A stretch of DNA of 64,000 nucleotides, from NCBI GenBank assembly GCA_951406725.2, contig OX597828.1, positions 73,470,001 to 73,534,000 on the forward strand. The letters are read 5' to 3'. Of this stretch, positions 6,471 to 59,310 are shown one piece after another. The position numbers were made by a program, and so were the translations under genes. This DNA is from Octopus vulgaris (Eukaryota). A model generated the notes under the pieces. That model was not told where the DNA came from. It did no database searches and was given only the letters and a program-made list of their open reading frames with translations. Numbering within the stretch: the first letter of the stretch is position 1; every line of letters begins with the position of its first letter.

Positions 6471-7020
6471 CTAAAAATTAATGCAGAAATGCATCGCATG
6501 GTCATTTTGGCATTTGGATTTGTGATAGAATTTAAATGTGTGATAAAAGTGGTGGTTGCATGTGCTTAATGCCTCGTTATGTTTATGAAGCAGTGTTGGA
6601 GAGTTGTGTTTTAATATTTGGAGTGCCTCCTTCAGGAAAAGCTTGCAGATTGAGCGCTGACCTCGGTAGGGAAGTCCTGAGTCTATTATAGACCATGATC
6701 GAGTATAGGGTATATTTGCATTTTTGAGATAATATATGTGGTAGGCGAGTATTGTAGATTTACTATGTTTATCGTATCTAAGAGTGGAGATGAGTGGCAT
6801 ATCGTTGCTTAAAGTTTTTTATTGATCCTATGTATATGGCTGTAGAGTTGTGCAATTGGTTAAGTACCGTGCATTTGTAGATTACATTATACCTTCTGCA
6901 ATGGGTTTGTAGCGGGCAGGATGTTCCAGGACGGCAATTACAATTAGGTGAATTTTGAGGATCATGTTCGGTAAATAAGGGCGTCGGATCATCAGAAGAG
7001 AGGTTATAGGAGGGGGTGAA
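6471..7020 (-). mobile_element. Penelope-like element GIY-YIG endonuclease (Neptune-type Cys linker), frameshifted
   Basis: CNCRPGTSCPLQTHC...NVIYKC...IYIGS...FKQRYATH, frameshift, then KSTILAYHI...WSII...CKLFLKEAL...CNH. Confidence 0.85.
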
Positions 7021-7028
7021 AATCTCTA

Positions 7029-7100
<72 letters not shown>

Positions 7101-7195
7101 TAGTATCATTATTAACGTTATCATTACTATTACCACCATTACTACTATTGTTATTGTTACTTCTGCTATTTGTCAGGAGATATATATATATATAC

Positions 7196-7375
7196 ATAAA
7201 GTTCAGATCTATGGAAAAATAATAAAAACAAAGAGAGGTGTAGGATCAACAAGCAAGTGTAATAGTTTGACGCTCGGGAAAAATGGAAGAGTCTTTTATG
7301 TTTCGAGCCTATGCTCTTCGAGAGGAAAGAACGAGGGAGAGACTGAATAAAAAATGTGTTGTGTTCAGTGGTCCA
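7196..7375 (-). mobile_element. short (TA)n-flanked element with decayed U6 hammerhead-like motif (7292-7330)
   Basis: Homologous to 30191-30377. Minus strand TCTTT-c-CTCTCGA-A-GAGC atag GCTC-GAAA-CA-TA-AAAGA. Confidence 0.6.
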
Positions 7376-13651: not shown

Positions 13652-15713
<2,062 letters not shown>

Positions 15714-15968
15714 AGATAGATAGATAGATAGATAGATAGATATACATGTATAAATATATATGCACATAGATAGTTTTGTATGTGTATTTGTGTGAACGGA
15801 AGACTTTCATTTTCCTTTCCAAAAATATATATCTAAACGATTGAAGAAATGCGGGTTATATATATATATTAGCTGCATTCAGTGATATCTCGTGTATTCA
15901 TGAATTTTCAAGGCGATATCACAGCATGACCGCAATCCAATGACAGAATCAAGTAAAAGATGAAAGAT

Positions 15969-39774: not shown

Positions 39775-41400
39775 CTAGTTTTTTGGAAGGTTGGTTTCGT
39801 TATTCTTTGGGAGTAGGTAAGTAATACCACTTGCTAACCATTCAGGTGTTTTCTTTAGGTCTCTTATAATTCTATTGAGCAGCTGAACTAGCTTACCGTG
39901 TGCGCATGGGAGCGATGCGAGCCAGAAATTCGGCACCCTATCTTTACCGGGGGATTTCCAATTATGGGCCTTCGTGAGTGCCTTTCTTAGGTCTGCTATT
40001 GTGATATCTTCCCATGCTTGTTGTTGTAAATTTTGGTAGGATCCTTCTGTTTGTATAATCCAGTCTGCATTTATGTTGTACGTCTTCTTGTCACTCCAAA
40101 TCCTTTTCCAAAAGTGTTGAACTTCTTCCATGGGAGCGGGGTCTTTAACGGTTACTTTCTCCTTCCCTATTTCTCTGTAGAATTTTTTGCCATTGGATGT
40201 GAACAGCTTATTTTGCTTGTAAAACTTGTTTCTCTTCTCAAAACTTCGTATTCTTTGGGCTTTTGCTTGGACTTTTTGTTTCAGCGTTTCTTTTATTGAT
40301 ATCAGTTCTTCTCTTGGTGAGGATCCAAATTTTCTCTTCGTCTTTCTTCCTGTTCTGGATCTTACATCATTTCCACATATTAGTTCATTTAATATTGATA
40401 TTTCCCCTCCCATAAATTCAATCTCTTTTTCAATTTTACTTCTCCAGGTTTGATTTCTTCCCAGGTTTTGTTTTCTTTGTTTTTTCGAGGGGAATACAGC
40501 TGGTTTCAATTGCCCTAGCAGAAGCGTAAATAATTTCATTTAACTCAGTAAAATCAGGTTTTAATTTTTGTATTATTTCATTTGTTACATAGTTGCCAAT
40601 TTGGATTTGTTTTTATTTTGGTTTGTATTTGAGAGTTTATGAAGTGGTTCTCTATCATTCATACTTGTATGTCTTACAACTTCAAGCGTATTCAGGATTT
40701 TCTGCCTCATTTCTGCCATAGACTCTCTGTGTTCTTCAGTAAATGCGAGATCTTCAGTTACTGTTGTTTTGTCATTTTCCTGGCTATCTTTAACAGGTTC
40801 AATAGAATTTCTTGTATCTTCAAGCCTTTGCGTACTTTGGTCAGATGGCAGTCTTTCAATTAAACCTCGTGGCGGGCTATACTGTTCATCTGATTCTTTA
40901 TTTCCTTTGTGTCTTATATTTATGTCATTTTCCGTTGCGTGCTTGATCGCGCTTATTTCACTGTCTGTGAGTCTGTTATTTCTAAGGATATCCCTCCTCA
41001 CATTTGCCAATTTGTTCTCGTCCAAATAAGGCCTAGTGTCTTGATTCCGTGTTCTCTATATACTGTAAGAGTTTGCGGTGTGTCTCTCTTGAGATGGCCT
41101 ACCTAATGCATAGTAATACGCGTATATTACTTCTTTATACTCTTCTTGGGTCCATTTGATCCGCTTACATTTTTCTTTCTGTGGTGGTTGTGGTGGTGAA
41201 CTTGGAGGGCTCGAGTTGGGGGATTTCCCGTTCAAGTGACCATCCATGTCCGTATTCGGAGAAGAGTTTGTGCCAGTTGATGACTTTTCGTTCCCAGGCT
41301 GGCTCTTCCCTGGGGGACGCGCTTCCAGATTTAGCATAGGACAAGCGATTTGGTATACTAATTTAGTTTTCCTTTTAGTTTCCAAAAACATTTTGGTGCT
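39775..41400 (-). mobile_element. R4/Dong-type LINE 5' half (N-terminus to start of RT), frameshifted
   Basis: KRIKWTQEEYKEV, NKLANVRRDIL, AKAQRIRSFEKR, NWKSPGKDRVPNFWL, GITYLLPK. Homologous to 50894-52600. Confidence 0.85.
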
Positions 41401-49830: not shown

Positions 49831-50034
49831 TAGGTTTTCCAGTTTTATTATAAATCTTTCTAAAGGGAAAGTTCTTTTTTTTTTTTATAACAAAGGGACA
49901 TCAATTTCTGTTTTCTTTTGTTGTTTATTTTTCTGCGCAGGGCTTCATCTGTTTGCAACTTTTGATGTCGCTTGACTTCTCTGGATGAAACGAGCGTACA
50001 GCTTGCATATATCAAAGCAGAGCCAACGCACAGA

Positions 50035-50109
<75 letters not shown>

Positions 50110-50111
<2 letters not shown>

Positions 50112-50603
50112 GGTCACAGAAAACGAGAAAGCAACCATACTCTGGGATATGCCGATACACACAGATAGAGAAATTAAGGCCAACAGACCAGATATAGTTG
50201 TCAGAGACCATGAAGAAAAAAAATGCTTTCTAATTGATGTATCAATACCGGCAGATGACAACGTGTCTCTAAAAGAAATGGAGAAACTCTCAAAATACAA
50301 AGACCTGGAAATAGAGGTAACTAGAATGTGGAATCTGAAAACAGAAACAATTCCTATCATAGTAGGTGCATTAGGCATGATAAAAAAATATTCAGACAAA
50401 TACATAACAAAAACACCAGGACTTACAAACACATATAACATACAGAAAATTGCACTACTAGGCACTGCACACATCCTACGCAGAACACTTTCCATACAAT
50501 AACCATCAGAGCATCACAACAAATCACAGCACATACCCAAGGCACACAGAGCTGCGCTCGGTAGTGAAGTGAAAGCACGCTATAAAAATTAAAAATAAAA
50601 CTA

Positions 50604-50608
<5 letters not shown>
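50110..50608 (+). mobile_element. 5'-truncated R4/Dong LINE (family A), REL domain plus 3' UTR, in (AAT)n
   Basis: ILWDMPIHTDREIKANRPDIVV...LIDVSIP...EKLSKYKDL (PD-D/E-x-K restriction-like endonuclease). (AAT)n on both sides. Confidence 0.9.
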
Positions 50609-50673
<65 letters not shown>

Positions 50674-50676
<3 letters not shown>

Positions 50677-53600
50677 GGGGGACGTTTAAGATGTAAAGAA
50701 CGATACAACAGAGCTCTGAAATCTATCCACAAACATCGAAAACAAGGACATCGTATGAAGCCAAAGATTTACTAACAAAGGATTGGACTGTACCCGAGTA
50801 AGTAATGCTCATTCAAATTTATTACTATTTTCGAAACGAAATGATGTATTTTGACTCGATATCATCTCCACCTCTAACACAACACATGTAAACATGCGTG
50901 GAACATTACGATCTATCAACACCAGATCATCCCCGACCCCAAACACCATGTTCAAAGGAACTACGAAGAAATTAAATACCACCGATATTATTCAACCCAA
51001 GAATAACAATCGGGAGGTACGTACTTTAAACTTACAACTCAAAATGTACGAAAAACTACACGTGCAAGACAATGTGACAACAGAAATGAACGGACCGGTA
51101 CCGAACGAAAATGACGACCGTCAAAGTAATGGGCCGGACGTTGTTCCTCATGTACCGCAAATAAAACCCAAAAGACATAAATGGACACGTGAGGAATACA
51201 TTTCTATCCTACAAGCATACTTCACAGCAGTGCTCTACCCCAAAAATGTAAATACAACAACACATACATATAAAATATGGAAGGAAAATAAAATAGATAT
51301 AGACTTGGATACAGCAATGAACCCTAATAAAATAGCTAACGTACGAAGATACATTCTCAACGCAAAAAAAATATCGGAAATAGAAATAAAACACCTAAAA
51401 GAAAAAATAAACCAGGAAAGTGTAGATAGAAGCCACACAACGATGCCCATTAATATAAACACTGAAACAGTAAAACACGAAGACAAACGTAACATTCCCA
51501 ACAAACACGATGTAAATAAAAAACAACAAACCCAGACCGTAAGGATACGTAATAATACACGACAAACAGCAAGCCAAAACACGGCAAACAAACATATAAA
51601 TAAGAGAGAAAGCGACACAAATCTAAAACCTAGAAACAACAAAGGGGAGCCTAATGATTATGATAATATAAAAAGTAAAATAATCAAAGAACTGAAAACC
51701 ACAGAGCCCAAAATGGACCACCGACCATACCTCCCAAGAATAAAAATAGACGAAACAACAACACCTATTATAAACAGCATAAACCTAGCCGTCACTGAAC
51801 TGATAGCAACTGAAACAAAAAGCGATATCACTAAGCTAAATGACTTAATATACACAGCAGCCACTGCCGCCACAAAAGAAGCTGGATACTCACTCAAACC
51901 CATCCAAACAGGAGTACCACCACCCAAAGAAACCCTGTGGATAAATAACATCCAAAACAAAATACAAAAAATGAGAAAAGATCTGTCGATTCTTAATGAA
52001 ATCAGTAGAAAATCAACGCTACTGAGCAGCAAAAAGAAAGCAAAAATACTCCGCAAATATAACATCACAGAAAAAGATTTACCGGAGATAAAAGAAAAGC
52101 TGAAGCAAGATATCCTTGCCAGAGCACAAAGGATCCACCGGTACGAGAAACGCCAGCGCTTCTTTGAACAAAACAAAAAGTTCAACTCCAACCCCAAAAA
52201 GTTTTACCAAGAACTTGGCAAAAATAAAATAGAAACCACTGCAGCACCAACGGCAGAAGAAGTGGAAGAATTCTGGAGAGAAATATGGTCGGCGAACGAA
52301 TAACCAAAAAAAAGAAGTATCAAAACAACAAACTCAGCATCTGAGCAACTTTGGACCCCCATAACAACTGAAGAGGTCACCCAGGCACTGCAAAGACTAA
52401 GCAACTGGAAGGCACCTGGGCATGACAAGATCCCCAACTTCTGGTTGAAATATCTAACAGGAATGCACAAAAAGCTGGCTGAAAACTTTGACAGCATATT
52501 AGCAGAGCCAGAGACAATGCCTGAATTGCTCACGAAGGGGAAACCATCTTAATTCCCAAATCAAATGAGACAGCTAAACCAGAAAACTACAGACCAATAA
52601 CCTGTCTCCCTACTATGTACAAGGCATTTACTGCAGTGATATCGCAAAGGTTGAACAAGCACCTGGACGAAAACAACCTGTTTCCATAAGAGCAGGAAGG
52701 ATGCCGCAAAGGCTCAAATGGCTGTAAAGATCAACTAATGATTAATAAAGCCATAACTGAAGAAAGCCACAGAAAGAAGAAAGGCCATAGTATGGCCTGG
52801 ATCGACTACAAAAAGGCGTTTGATAGCATCCCCAACACATGGATCCTCGAAACACTAGCCATTTACAAAGTAGCACCAACCCTTATAAAATTCATAGGGC
52901 ACTCTATGAATAAATGGCAAACCGTGCTACAGCTCCAAACAAAAGAGGGACTCATGAAAACCAAAGCCATCCCCATTAGAAGAGGAATATTCCAGGGAGA
53001 CACGCTCTCTCCACTCCTTTTCTGCTTGGCACTGTCACCTCTATCTGATATGCTAAATAGAACTGGATGCGGATATAAATGTTACGGCAAAACGATCAGC
53101 CACCTTTTATATATGGATGACCTAAAACTATAAGCTGCAAATGACAAACAGCTGGAAACACTATTAAAGACAGTTCATGGATTTACCAAAGAAATAGATA
53201 TGAAATTTGGATAAGAAAAATGCGCCAAAGTAACCATGAAAAGAGGAAAAATAGTTAAGAGTAACAACATCACACTAGATAAAACCAATGAAATAAAAGA
53301 ATTAGACCAAAGCCAAACTTACAAATACTTAGGAATCCATGAACTAGATAAGACACAACACACACAAATGAAAGAGAAAATAAAAAAAGAATATTATAGA
53401 CGAGTTAGATCAATACTAAAAACAGAGCTCAATGCTAAAAACAAGATAATAGGTATTAACACTTTAGCTATCCCAGTTATAAGTTACAGCTACAATATCC
53501 TTAACTGGACACTAAATGAACTGACCAAAATAGATAGGAAAACAAGAAAAATACTGACAGGATCTAGGATGCATCACCCAAAATCTGACATAGAAAGACT

Positions 53601-54765
53601 ATATATACAACGTATAGAAGGTGGTAGAGGCCTTATACAGCTGAAAACTACTATAAAATAACCACCATAGGACTGCAAAAATATCTACTTCAGAAGGAAG
53701 GAAAACTGATCAGATAGCGGCAAAACACGAGCAAAACAAAAAAATGTTCTCAGTATTTAAGGAAGCTGACAAATACAAACAAGAAATCATACCACCTAAT
53801 AAACACAAAGAAGAAGATGATGAAGAAGAAGAAGAAGAACAAAAGCTATAAAACAAATGAAATCCAAACTAAAAATAGAACAGCAACGAGCCATGATAAA
53901 ACGATGGCAAGAAAAACCCCTTCATGGTAAATACTGGACTAAACTAAATGCAAAAGAAATAGACAAAGAAAAATCCCAGCAATGGTTGAGAAGCTCAGGA
54001 CTCAATGCAGAGACAGAGGGATTTTTAATTGCAGCACAAGACCAAAGCCTCCCCACCAGAAATTACCAAAATCATGTAATGAAAAGAAATATAACAAATA
54101 ACTGCAGAATATGTGGAGATGGACAAGAAACAATAAATCATATTATCTCTGGTTGCCCAGTCCTGGCTAAACAGGATTATATTCACAGACATGACAGAGT
54201 TGGAACCTACATACATTGGAAGCTATGCCAACATTATGGAATAACAACAGAAAAAAGATTGTATAGGCACACACTAGAAAAGGTCACAGAAAACGAGAAA
54301 GCAACCATACTCTGGGATATTCCGATACACACAGATAGAGAAATTAAGGCCAACAGACCAGATATAGTTGTCAGAGATCATGAAGAAAAAAATGCTTTCT
54401 AATTGATGTATCAATACCGGCAGATAACGACGTGTCTCTAAAAGAAATGGAGAAACTTTCAAAATACAAAGACCTGAAAATAGAGGTAACTAGAATGTGG
54501 AATCTGAAAACAGAAACAATTCCTATCATAGTAGGTGCATTAGGCATGATAAAAAAATATTCAGACAAATACATAACAAAAACACCAGGACTTACAAACA
54601 CATATAACATACAGAAAATTGCACTACTAGGCACTGCCTACATCCTACGCAGAACACTTTCAATACAGTAACCATCAGAGGATCACAAAGAATCACAGCA
54701 CATACCCAAGGCACACAGAGCTGCGCTCGGTAGTGAAGTGAAAGCACGCTATAAAAATAAAACTA

Positions 54766-54770
<5 letters not shown>
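50674..54770 (+). mobile_element. full-length R4/Dong-clade non-LTR retrotransposon (family A), decayed, in (AAT)n
   Basis: Broken single ORF 50894-54671: N-terminal KWTREE domain; RT (NYRPITCLP, WIDYKKAFDS, GIFQGDTLSPLLF, HLLYMDDLKL); CCHC (CRICGDGQETINHIISGC); RHD; REL (RPDIVV, KLSKYKDL). (AAT)n on both flanks. Confidence 0.93.
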
Positions 54771-54819
<49 letters not shown>

Positions 54820-54820
54820 C

Positions 54821-54866
<46 letters not shown>

Positions 54867-54904
54867 TAATAATAATAATAATAACAAAACAACAACAACA
54901 ATAA

Positions 54905-55157
<253 letters not shown>

Positions 55158-55169
55158 TAAAAAAAAAAA

Positions 55170-55261
<92 letters not shown>

Positions 55262-55267
55262 TAATAA

Positions 55268-55867
55268 TCCACAATCCACCCCCAGTGCTTGAAGATGACC
55301 ACATCTCACTCCTCTGGAACTTCACCATTCAAACTGACAGAAAGATAGATGCAAATAGGCCAGACATCATATTGAAAGACTTCAGACAAAGAACATGCCT
55401 CCTCATTGATATGACTGTCCTAATCGATATAAACGTATCTGTCAAGACCTACCAGAAACTGAGCAAATATAAATATCTTGAAATAGAAATCAGCAAAATG
55501 TGGAACCTGAAGACTAAAACAATACCAGTTGTCATAGGTGCCCTGGGAATGATAGCGAAAGGGGCTGATTGCTACCTAACTCAGATACCAGGAAACCCCA
55601 AAATGGCAGAAATTCAAAAGATAGTGCTCATGGGAACTGCTCATATCCTACGCAAAATACTCTCTATGTAATCTCAAGGTTTAAAACAAACTTTTTTTTC
55701 TTTTTTAAATTTATTTATTAGACATTCACTTGTACAACACCAAAAAACACCTAAATATATGGCACACTAGGCATAACAACAACGTAAACTTCCAACCTGT
55801 TGTCTCTTGAGGTCTCTGTCTGGGTGAGACATGGAGCCAACTTGTACAAACATAAAGCAAAAGTCAA

Positions 55868-57858: not shown

Positions 57859-57914
57859 TTATATATATGCATATATATATATATAATGTATTTATTATAT
57901 GTATATACTATATG

Positions 57915-57971
<57 letters not shown>

Positions 57972-57973
<2 letters not shown>

Positions 57974-58298
57974 GGAGATGTACTCGCATAGCAAGTAATT
58001 TGATCTGAGATCGTGTGCTGAAACGAAAACAATTGCAGCGTGGAGGTATTTATAAGCCATTTAAGAAACACACAAAAGCCGTTCGATTCACTCCAACATT
58101 TAAGTTTAATTTGTCAAAATATTTTCGTCGCTAAAATCCGCGACCTGTTCACTGATGCAGCACGGACTTTGTCAGTGAACAGGTCGCGGATTTTAGCGAC
58201 GAAAATATTTTGACAAATTAAACTTAAATGTTGGAGTGAATCGAACGGCTTTTGTGTGTTTCTTAAATGGCTTATAAACACCTCCCACGCTGCAATTG

Positions 58299-58299
<1 letters not shown>
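57972..58299. mobile_element. (TA)n-flanked element forming a ~127-bp-arm hairpin, with variant hammerheads
   Basis: 58029-58155 is the near-perfect reverse complement of 58172-58299, with a 16-nt loop. Confidence 0.85.
58168..58217 (+). ncRNA. type I hammerhead-fold RNA with G3-C8 swapped core (GUGAACA)
   Basis: TTTGTCA-GTGAACA-G-GTCGC ggatttta GCGAC-GAAA-ATAT-TT-TGACAAA. 7-bp stem I, 5-bp stem II, palindromic stem III AATATT. Mirrored on the minus strand at 58110-58155. Confidence 0.75.
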
Positions 58300-58336
<37 letters not shown>

Positions 58337-58396
58337 CATATATATATATAACATACTGAATGACGTACACTAAAATTTTCTATTTCTTCTGAATAG

Positions 58397-58707: not shown

Positions 58708-59310
58708 ATGGAAGAAAAGGTGAAGGCAAAAATCCTCTGGGACTGACTTTCAGAGAGACAGGGATATAGTAACCGTAGACCCGATATAGTAACCTTTAAG
58801 ATGGACAAACGAGAGTGCCTAATAATTGAGGTGGCAGTGTCAGGAGATGAACATATCATCATGAAAGAAAGAGAACAGGTTGATAAAGATGGAGACTGAG
58901 GGCCTCCATATGCAGCTACGTGGGTCAAACATAAAGGTAATCCCTATTCTCATCGGAGCTTTGGTTTCAATACCACTCAATCTGTAAAATCAATCATCTG
59001 AAAACTTTAGAAATACTCTACAATCTAGATGTATTGCAACAGATGGCATTACTTGGAACTGCACGCATATTGCGTAAAGAACTGTCTGTCTGACTATAAT
59101 TAATGCAGTATCGGCCAGTGGCTCTCATGGCTTCTGATCTTAACTGATTGGAAGTGTTATCATGTACGTTATTTTGTCTTGGTATAAAAGAGGGTTCACA
59201 GCAAATATTCTGCTCAATACTACAGATGTGCTTGTCAGTTGTTTGACCTTAACCAGTTGAGCATGTCCGGAGATCACCATTTCGTACACATATGGTTGTG
59301 ATGCATGGTA
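58708..59310 (+). mobile_element. R4/Dong LINE (family D) 3' fragment, decayed, after (AAT)n
   Basis: AKILWD, NRRPDIV, CLIIEVAV, LLGTARILRKELSV*. Confidence 0.75.

What the first reader, a model, noticed from the sequence alone, without database searches (positions are those of the whole stretch)
58110..58217. Natural G3-C8 core-swapped hammerhead ribozyme
Seen: stem I TTTGTCA/TGACAAA, stem II GTCGC/GCGAC, GAAA and a palindromic stem III (AATATT) are all in type I hammerhead register. The CUGANGA box, however, reads GUGAACA, so exactly positions 3 and 8 are changed, and reciprocally. Known: C3-G8 is a tertiary Watson-Crick pair in the active hammerhead fold, and compensatory swaps restore activity in mutagenesis. 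Inference: this is a covarying natural variant that CUGANGA pattern searches would miss. The predicted cleavage is after 58210 (UUU triplet, a weak one). Both hairpin arms carry the variant, but they are not independent copies.
Basis: partly seen in the sequence, partly recalled or inferred. Interest (0 to 1): 0.9.

Follow-up and report, generated by a model that had tools for sequence, protein, structure and literature searches.

The report
Swapped-core hammerhead of a Penelope retroelement
A 50-base hammerhead-shaped RNA motif with two paired core letters swapped (G3-C8 instead of C3-G8) is the normal form in about 1,900 copies of a jumping gene in this animal genome, while sister families carry C-G or U-A at the same two places, so it is a real natural variant that likely cuts itself slowly, although cutting has not been shown.

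Summary
Observation confirmed. It lies in the pseudo-LTR of a young Penelope-like element (RT plus GIY-YIG). The window holds a short direct copy and an inverted copy; the inverted arm keeps only 3 bp of stem I. The swap is the family norm: 1,947 matches, 98 of 100 listed G3-C8. An older subfamily and an older family share it. Sister families have C3-G8 or U3-A8, and the 3-8 pair is Watson-Crick in 11 of 11 aligned lineages. Against strong activity: copies run through the uncut site, and 0 of 9 junctions near it start at the cut. Cleavage is untested; slow, dimer- or protein-assisted cutting is the likeliest reading. Natural U3-A8 and engineered G3-C8 rescue are published. I found no natural G3-C8 in papers I could read, but key ones were unavailable. 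This scan noted G3-C8 candidates before in other genomes. New variant of a known kind.

The parts
58168..58217 (+). Minimal type I hammerhead motif, G3-C8 variant, complete copy
   Evidence: sense to the ORF and present in both direct pseudo-LTRs of long copy L065
58168..58174 (+). Stem I 5' strand (pairs with 58211-58217, 7 bp)
   Evidence: pairing probability 0.67-1.0 in native context; one distal pair is U-A here and G-C in most family C copies
58175..58181 (+). Core box with G3 (58175) and C8 (58180)
   Evidence: 98 of 100 listed family copies
58182..58182 (+). Extra nucleotide between A9 and G10.1, typical of Penelope minimal hammerheads
   Evidence: feature described in PMC4209133
58183..58200 (+). 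Stem II (5 bp, G10.1-C11.1) with 8-nt loop 2
   Evidence: loop 2 varies between subfamilies and in other samples
58201..58210 (+). G12-A14, palindromic stem III AATATT (58204-58209, predicted 6 bp in a dimer) and U17; predicted cut after 58210
   Evidence: cut site inferred by analogy, untested
58154..58298 (+). Short direct copy of the Penelope-like element: inferred transcript start, hammerhead, 5' UTR, start of the ORF, first RT-initiation end
   Evidence: Matches the pseudo-LTR of long copies; 5' start hotspot
58267..58298 (+). First 10 codons of the element's ORF (ATG 58267), homologous to the sister family's N-terminus
57972..58155 (-). Inverted copy with a ~60-nt tail (57972-58030); its hammerhead (58110-58155) keeps only 3 bp of stem I
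58154..58155 (.). 2-nt microhomology at the inversion junction
57900..57971 (.). (TA)n target microsatellite, left flank
58299..58349 (.). (TA)n target microsatellite, right flank

Best explanation
This is the pseudo-LTR hammerhead of a Penelope-like retroelement family in which the 3-8 core pair is fixed as G3-C8, and it likely self-cleaves after U17 only slowly, as a stem III dimer or with help from the element's protein. Shown: the fold, its place in both pseudo-LTRs about 57 nt before the start codon, fixation of G3-C8, complementary 3-8 states in relatives, and conservation of core and stems. Inferred: a capped transcript starts about 21 nt before G3. The RT would initiate about 88 or 148 nt past the cut site and mostly copy uncut RNA into (TA)n targets, giving short copies like this one. 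A G3-U17 wobble (weaker than the G3-C17 pair that C17 would allow) is predicted to compete with G3-C8; the clade's U17 may be what made the swap tolerable. The window copy itself is probably inert, because its arms would pair into a long hairpin.
For: Fixation: 1,947 matches, 98 of 100 listed G3-C8; older subfamily A2 25 of 29; older family C G3 in 21 of 30 and C8 in 28 of 30. Relatives: family B C3-G8 in 36 of 37 held copies; family D U3-A8 in 90 of 100 listed, of 1,802 matches (hand count). Metagenome relatives: U3-A8 in L129 and L131, C3-G8 in L135, L137, L138, L145. The 3-8 pair is Watson-Crick in 11 of 11 rows (CG 5, GC 3, UA 3), with 0 of 500 shuffles as high on covariation; permutation p about 0.002 on 9 lineages. 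A versus A2: 0 of 40 core and stem positions differ, against 18 of 81 in the 3' flank (Fisher p 0.0006) and 3 of 8 in loop 2. Literature: engineered C3G/G8C partly restores a Penelope hammerhead, which is protein-assisted and not needed for insertion in vitro (PMC11167929); minimal hammerheads cleave weakly and only as multimers (PMC4209133).
Against: No cleavage data. Copies span the uncut site: 114 minus-strand junctions lie at the upstream start against 8 in a 30-nt zone round the cut, and 0 of 9 loci start at cut+1. Canonical family B has 7 of 44 there, but the difference is not significant (Fisher p 0.33). The minimum-energy fold pairs G3 with U17, an inactive register. The isolated stem III duplex is weak (-0.2 kcal/mol) and the predicted dimer is not the double hammerhead. 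The covariation rows are related and were partly picked by eye; L136 and L141 were left out, and 6 of 14 metagenome loci examined showed no motif. Published rescue is only partial.
Confidence: 0.68

Rival explanations
1. The hammerhead fold is kept for a non-catalytic job, such as a binding or positioning element for the ORF protein near the RT start, and the G3-C8 family no longer cuts.
For: Copies come from uncut RNA and 0 of 9 start at the cut. In the Anolis element cleavage was dispensable for insertion and no reads ended at the cut (PMC11167929). G3-U17 pairing is predicted.
Against: The 3-8 pair and all other catalytic positions are conserved or covary; that pair belongs to the active fold (PMC3088659). 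The footprint difference from family B is not significant.
Confidence: 0.22
2. A dead ribozyme hit by two chance mutations and amplified as a passenger of a successful family.
For: Copies of the young family are near-identical, so copy number alone says nothing about selection. Some Penelope-like clades spread without canonical hammerheads (PMC8557442).
Against: G3-C8 persists across A, A2 and C while N7, loop 2, stem III length and flanks change. 0 of 40 core and stem changes against 18 of 81 in the flank. All 3-8 changes seen between families are double and complementary.
Confidence: 0.06
3. The real feature is the long inverted-repeat hairpin (miRNA-like or MITE-like) and the hammerhead pattern is incidental.
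For: Rfam gives only sub-threshold miRNA-hairpin matches here; the arms are near-perfect complements.
Against: Many copies have no inverted arm, inversion points vary, and the motif sits in direct pseudo-LTRs of long copies. Rfam also missed the canonical sister hammerheads.
Confidence: 0.03

Closest known systems
Minimal type I hammerheads (min-HHR) of Penelope-like elements (Cervera and de la Pena 2014, PMC4209133)
   Same: Place in pseudo-LTRs, extra nucleotide between 9 and 10.1, G10.1-C11.1, short palindromic stem III, frequent U17, opposite-strand pairs of copies.
   Different: Position 3 is C (53) or U (3) in their 56 representatives and never G (Fig. S3, hand count). Here G3-C8 is fixed.
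Natural U3-A8 core variants (Schistosoma Cercyon elements, PMC4209133; Perreault 2011, PMC3088659)
   Same: Compensated change of the 3-8 tertiary pair in nature; U3-A8 also occurs in sister family D here.
   Different: U3-A8 is two transitions that keep pyrimidine 3 and purine 8. G3-C8 is two transversions that put a purine at 3 and allow pairing with N17.
Engineered C3G/G8C double mutants (Anolis Poseidon element, PMC11167929; review PMC8495972)
   Same: Same core letters; partial rescue of cleavage reported.
   Different: Laboratory constructs, not natural families.
Neptune/Nematis-type Penelope-like elements (PMC8557442)
   Same: RT then cysteine linker then GIY-YIG endonuclease; pseudo-LTRs, inverted 5' copies, tail, (TA)n targets.
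   Different: Tail about 60 nt rather than 30-40. Clade assignment rests on the linker motif only; no reference tree was built.

Membership tests
Hammerhead ribozyme (type I) | Stems I and II round the core in type I order | tested here: met
   stem II covaries across 11 rows, 97.7% of cells paired
Hammerhead ribozyme (type I) | U4, G5, A6, A9, G12, A13, A14, A15.1-U16.1 and H17 | tested here: met
   conserved in A2 and C
Hammerhead ribozyme (type I) | Literal C3 and G8 (CUGANGA) | tested here: not met
   G3 and C8 in 98 of 100 listed copies; hence filed as a variant, not a canonical member
Hammerhead ribozyme (type I) | Watson-Crick pair between positions 3 and 8 | tested here: met
   11 of 11 rows: CG 5, GC 3, UA 3
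Hammerhead ribozyme (type I) | Site-specific self-cleavage after N17 | not testable with these tools
   No raw RNA reads listed; genomic junction proxy inconclusive
Hammerhead ribozyme (type I) | Match to an Rfam hammerhead model | tested here: inconclusive
   No match at E 5, but canonical sisters were not matched either
Penelope minimal hammerhead (min-HHR) | Sense, in both pseudo-LTRs of a PLE | tested here: met
   L065 positions 5242 and 9503 flank the ORF
Penelope minimal hammerhead (min-HHR) | Extra base between 9 and 10.1; palindromic short stem III | tested here: met
Penelope minimal hammerhead (min-HHR) | Cleaves as a dimer | not testable with these tools
   Cofolding did not give the double hammerhead
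Penelope-like element (EN+) | RT plus C-terminal GIY-YIG endonuclease in one ORF | tested here: met
   YVDD motif. Homologs hit RVT_1 and GIY-YIG below Pfam cut-offs (2 of 7). Best fold matches are I-TevI and UvrC GIY-YIG, E 0.008-0.08. The family's own proteins had no significant Pfam hit
Penelope-like element (EN+) | Pseudo-LTRs, inverted 5' copies, tail with two 3' ends, microsatellite target | tested here: met
   3' ends peak at +89-90 and +147-149 from the cut
Neptune clade | Cysteine linker between RT and EN, and placement in a reference phylogeny | tested here: inconclusive
   CX3CxxC linker present; no reference sequences in the tree

The most novel reading that the evidence does not exclude
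The first high-copy, selected natural G3-C8 hammerhead. Sister Penelope families in one genome sample three Watson-Crick states of the 3-8 pair as tuned cleavage rates. G3-C8, made tolerable by U17, is a slow or protein-gated setting that lets capped, uncut pseudo-LTR transcripts be copied in bulk.
Probability: 0.35. Interest if true: 0.68.

Novelty: new variant of a known kind. Interest (0 to 1): 0.5.

Why it matters
It extends natural covariation of the hammerhead 3-8 pair to the transversion swap, with family-scale evidence rather than a single sequence. Descriptor searches built on CUGANGA or YUGANRA undercount these ribozymes. Families A, B and D give a ready-made natural series (G-C, C-G, U-A, all U17) for asking what Penelope hammerheads do, which is still open. 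Junction statistics in the genome offer an in vivo readout to set beside measured rates.

Tried and rejected
Rfam scans found no hammerhead here or in canonical sisters, so they are uninformative. No RNA holder was listed and no raw reads were available; four contig sets were laid, which cannot show RNA ends. That table listed no other letter at 3 or 8, but 35 rows were hidden, so I do not count it. Viral contigs gave no relative. Pfam did not recognise the family's proteins; the PDB profile search gave two weak RT hits. Cofolding did not return the double hammerhead. The first alignment had a wrong family C stretch (redone) and the first pair count used mis-set stem II columns (redone). The family C column comparison was misaligned at stem III and used 15 of 30 copies; I use instead. 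No covariance model was built. The 5' hotspot first looked like a splice acceptor (branch-like motif, pyrimidines, AG). I favour a transcription start, because copies keep the AG and often gain an extra G, but an intron is not excluded. L141 looks A3-U8-like but its GAAA is out of register, so it was not counted. Novelty searches; none surfaced a natural G3-C8 report. Lunse 2016, Hammann 2012, Przybilski and Hammann 2007, Nelson and Uhlenbeck 2008 and Martick and Scott 2006 were not held; they or their supplements may bear on novelty and on rates.

Full report
1. Observation. The + strand of 58168-58217 has stem I (7 bp), the box GTGAACA, one extra G, stem II (5 bp, G10.1-C11.1), GAA, the palindrome AATATT, U17 and the stem I 3' strand. 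It folds as drawn (z -3.4). A descriptor that accepts any Watson-Crick 3-8 pair finds 2 hits in the window and 0 in 6.4 Mb of shuffles. The minus-strand twin is cut by the inversion junction and keeps 3 bp of stem I. Rfam finds no hammerhead here or in canonical relatives.

2. What it belongs to. The 131 bases from 58168 match many genomic copies (959 candidates, 40 scored, most at 100%). Longer copies carry, upstream and on the same strand, an ORF with YVDD, a CX3CxxC linker and a C-terminal nuclease. Two of 7 homologs tested hit RVT_1 and GIY-YIG weakly, and a confident model (pLDDT 86) matches I-TevI and UvrC GIY-YIG domains best, at E 0.008-0.08. Long copy L065 has the motif in both direct pseudo-LTRs. 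The ORF starts at window 58267. 3' ends peak at +89-90 and +147-149 from the predicted cut (loci up to L084, some overlapping), like the two RT start sites and tail described in PMC11167929. So the window holds a short direct copy (58154-58298) plus an inverted copy with tail (57972-58155) in a (TA)n target. The host is likely an octopus: a sister-family protein labelled Octopus vulgaris matches the genome at up to 100%.

3. Is G3-C8 real? With positions 3, 7, 8 and the extra base left free, the pattern has 1,947 matches and 0 for the reversed control; 98 of the 100 listed are G3-C8. Older subfamily A2 (732 candidates) is G-C in 25 of 29 copies. Its commonest letters differ from the window at 0 of 40 core and stem positions, 3 of 8 loop positions and 18 of 81 downstream positions (Fisher p 0.0006). 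A still older family C (688 candidates, about 80% identity) has G3 in 21 of 30 and C8 in 28 of 30, with a different N7, loop 2, a 4-nt stem III palindrome and a compensated stem I pair.

Sister family B (55% protein identity) has C3-G8 with C9 at the homologous place (36 of 37 held copies). Family D has U3-A8 in 90 of 100 listed, of 1,802 matches (hand count). Of 17 metagenome relatives, 14 were examined 3' of the ORF: U3-A8 in 2, C3-G8 in 4 (one found by eye), one C3-G8 with a U4 change, one unclear, six without a motif. In an alignment of 11 natural copies the 3-8 pair is Watson-Crick in all (CG 5, GC 3, UA 3) and stem II covaries. Merging A, A2 and C, a permutation gives p about 0.002, which overstates independence because the rows are related. 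A 16-row protein tree groups A with B (99/98; support rough, C and D absent) among C-G and U-A relatives, so G3-C8 is likely derived.

4. How it likely works. Position and anatomy are those of Penelope minimal hammerheads, which cleave weakly and only as multimers (PMC4209133). In the Anolis element the hammerhead needs the protein, is partly rescued by C3G/G8C and is not needed for insertion (PMC11167929). I infer the same here. In the predicted fold G3 pairs with U17 and extends stem I, a competing inactive register. PMC3884650 reports, as data not shown, that G3-C8 is less active with C17 than with G17; from that I infer that the clade's U17 made the swap tolerable.

Genomic junctions show what was copied. 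Short copies start in a narrow zone about 20-22 nt before G3: 15 of 34 ends, with none between -3 and -133, and 42 of 48 listed loci (hand count; the pattern only sees ends near there). Among the 14 loci that start at the AG with a non-native base before it, 10 have G (p about 2e-5 against 18% G), which suggests a copied cap. Around the cut only 9 loci abut (TA)n and none starts at cut+1. On the minus strand the counts are 114 against 8. Canonical family B has 7 of 44 listed loci at cut+1 (hand count; a T from the target blurs +1 and +2), which is not significantly different (p 0.33). These searches miss copies with inverted junctions. Templates were therefore mostly uncut, as expected for a slow or gated ribozyme, and also for a silent one. 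The window copy would fold into a long hairpin if read through and is probably inert.

5. Comparison and novelty. Natural U3-A8 is published (PMC3088659, section 8; PMC4209133). None of 56 Penelope representatives has G3. Nine searches surfaced no natural G3-C8, but Lunse 2016 and four other key papers were not held, so priority is open. Earlier notes of this scan describe G3-C8 candidates in protist Penelope elements (with an inserted core base) and in phages; I did not test them. What this case adds is an uninserted core, family-wide fixation, persistence through divergence and three pair states among sister families.

What I saw of each paper. PMC4209133: main text parts 1-2 of 4, supplement parts 1-2 of 3. 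PMC3088659: passages and section 8. PMC11167929: passages and the second half of the main text. PMC10085705: passages and section 14. PMC8557442, PMC3884650, PMC6765202, PMC8495972, PMC6155905, PMC6466107, PMC6257768: passages only. bioRxiv 10.64898/2026.07.22.740005: part 1 of 5. Hammerhead numbering and the CUGANGA consensus are recalled and agree with those texts.

6. Verdict. Real, selected core variant of a known ribozyme kind in a known element kind; catalysis untested. Interest 0.5; new variant of a known kind.

Noticed in passing
G000 family A copies; window 58154: Short copies start at one sharp site about 21 nt before G3, often with an extra G, suggesting full-length cDNA of capped pseudo-LTR transcripts rather than random 5' truncation. 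The site also resembles a splice acceptor.
   Followed up: partly
L086:2129-2178 and other family B copies: Young intact sister family (ORF about 1,310 aa) with C3-G8, an A9C change and a near-palindromic stem III; 7 of 44 nearby junctions start at the predicted cut, a possible genomic footprint of cleavage.
   Followed up: partly
L236:1497-1543 (family D): U3-A8 family with 1,802 pattern matches and a 3-bp stem I; 7 of 100 listed are C3-A8.
   Followed up: partly
L135:4969-5013: Metagenome relative with canonical C3-G8 but U15.1-A16.1 in a palindromic stem III.
   Followed up: no
L141:2320-2365: A3...U8-like box with a stem II hairpin, but GAAA out of register; possible decayed fourth state.
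   Followed up: no
L100-L128 (subfamily A2): Many A2 copies share one fixed short inverted 5' piece and differing 3' continuations, suggesting non-autonomous derivatives.
   Followed up: no
window 6778-7245 (-): Fragment with cysteine motifs and a GIY-YIG-like stretch, probably another Penelope-like endonuclease remnant.
   Followed up: no
window 14351-15832 (-), 39775-41055 (-), 49966-55671, 58720-59100: Fragments of other non-LTR retrotransposons (RT and restriction-like endonuclease motifs, names recalled); the window is mostly repeats and microsatellites.
   Followed up: no
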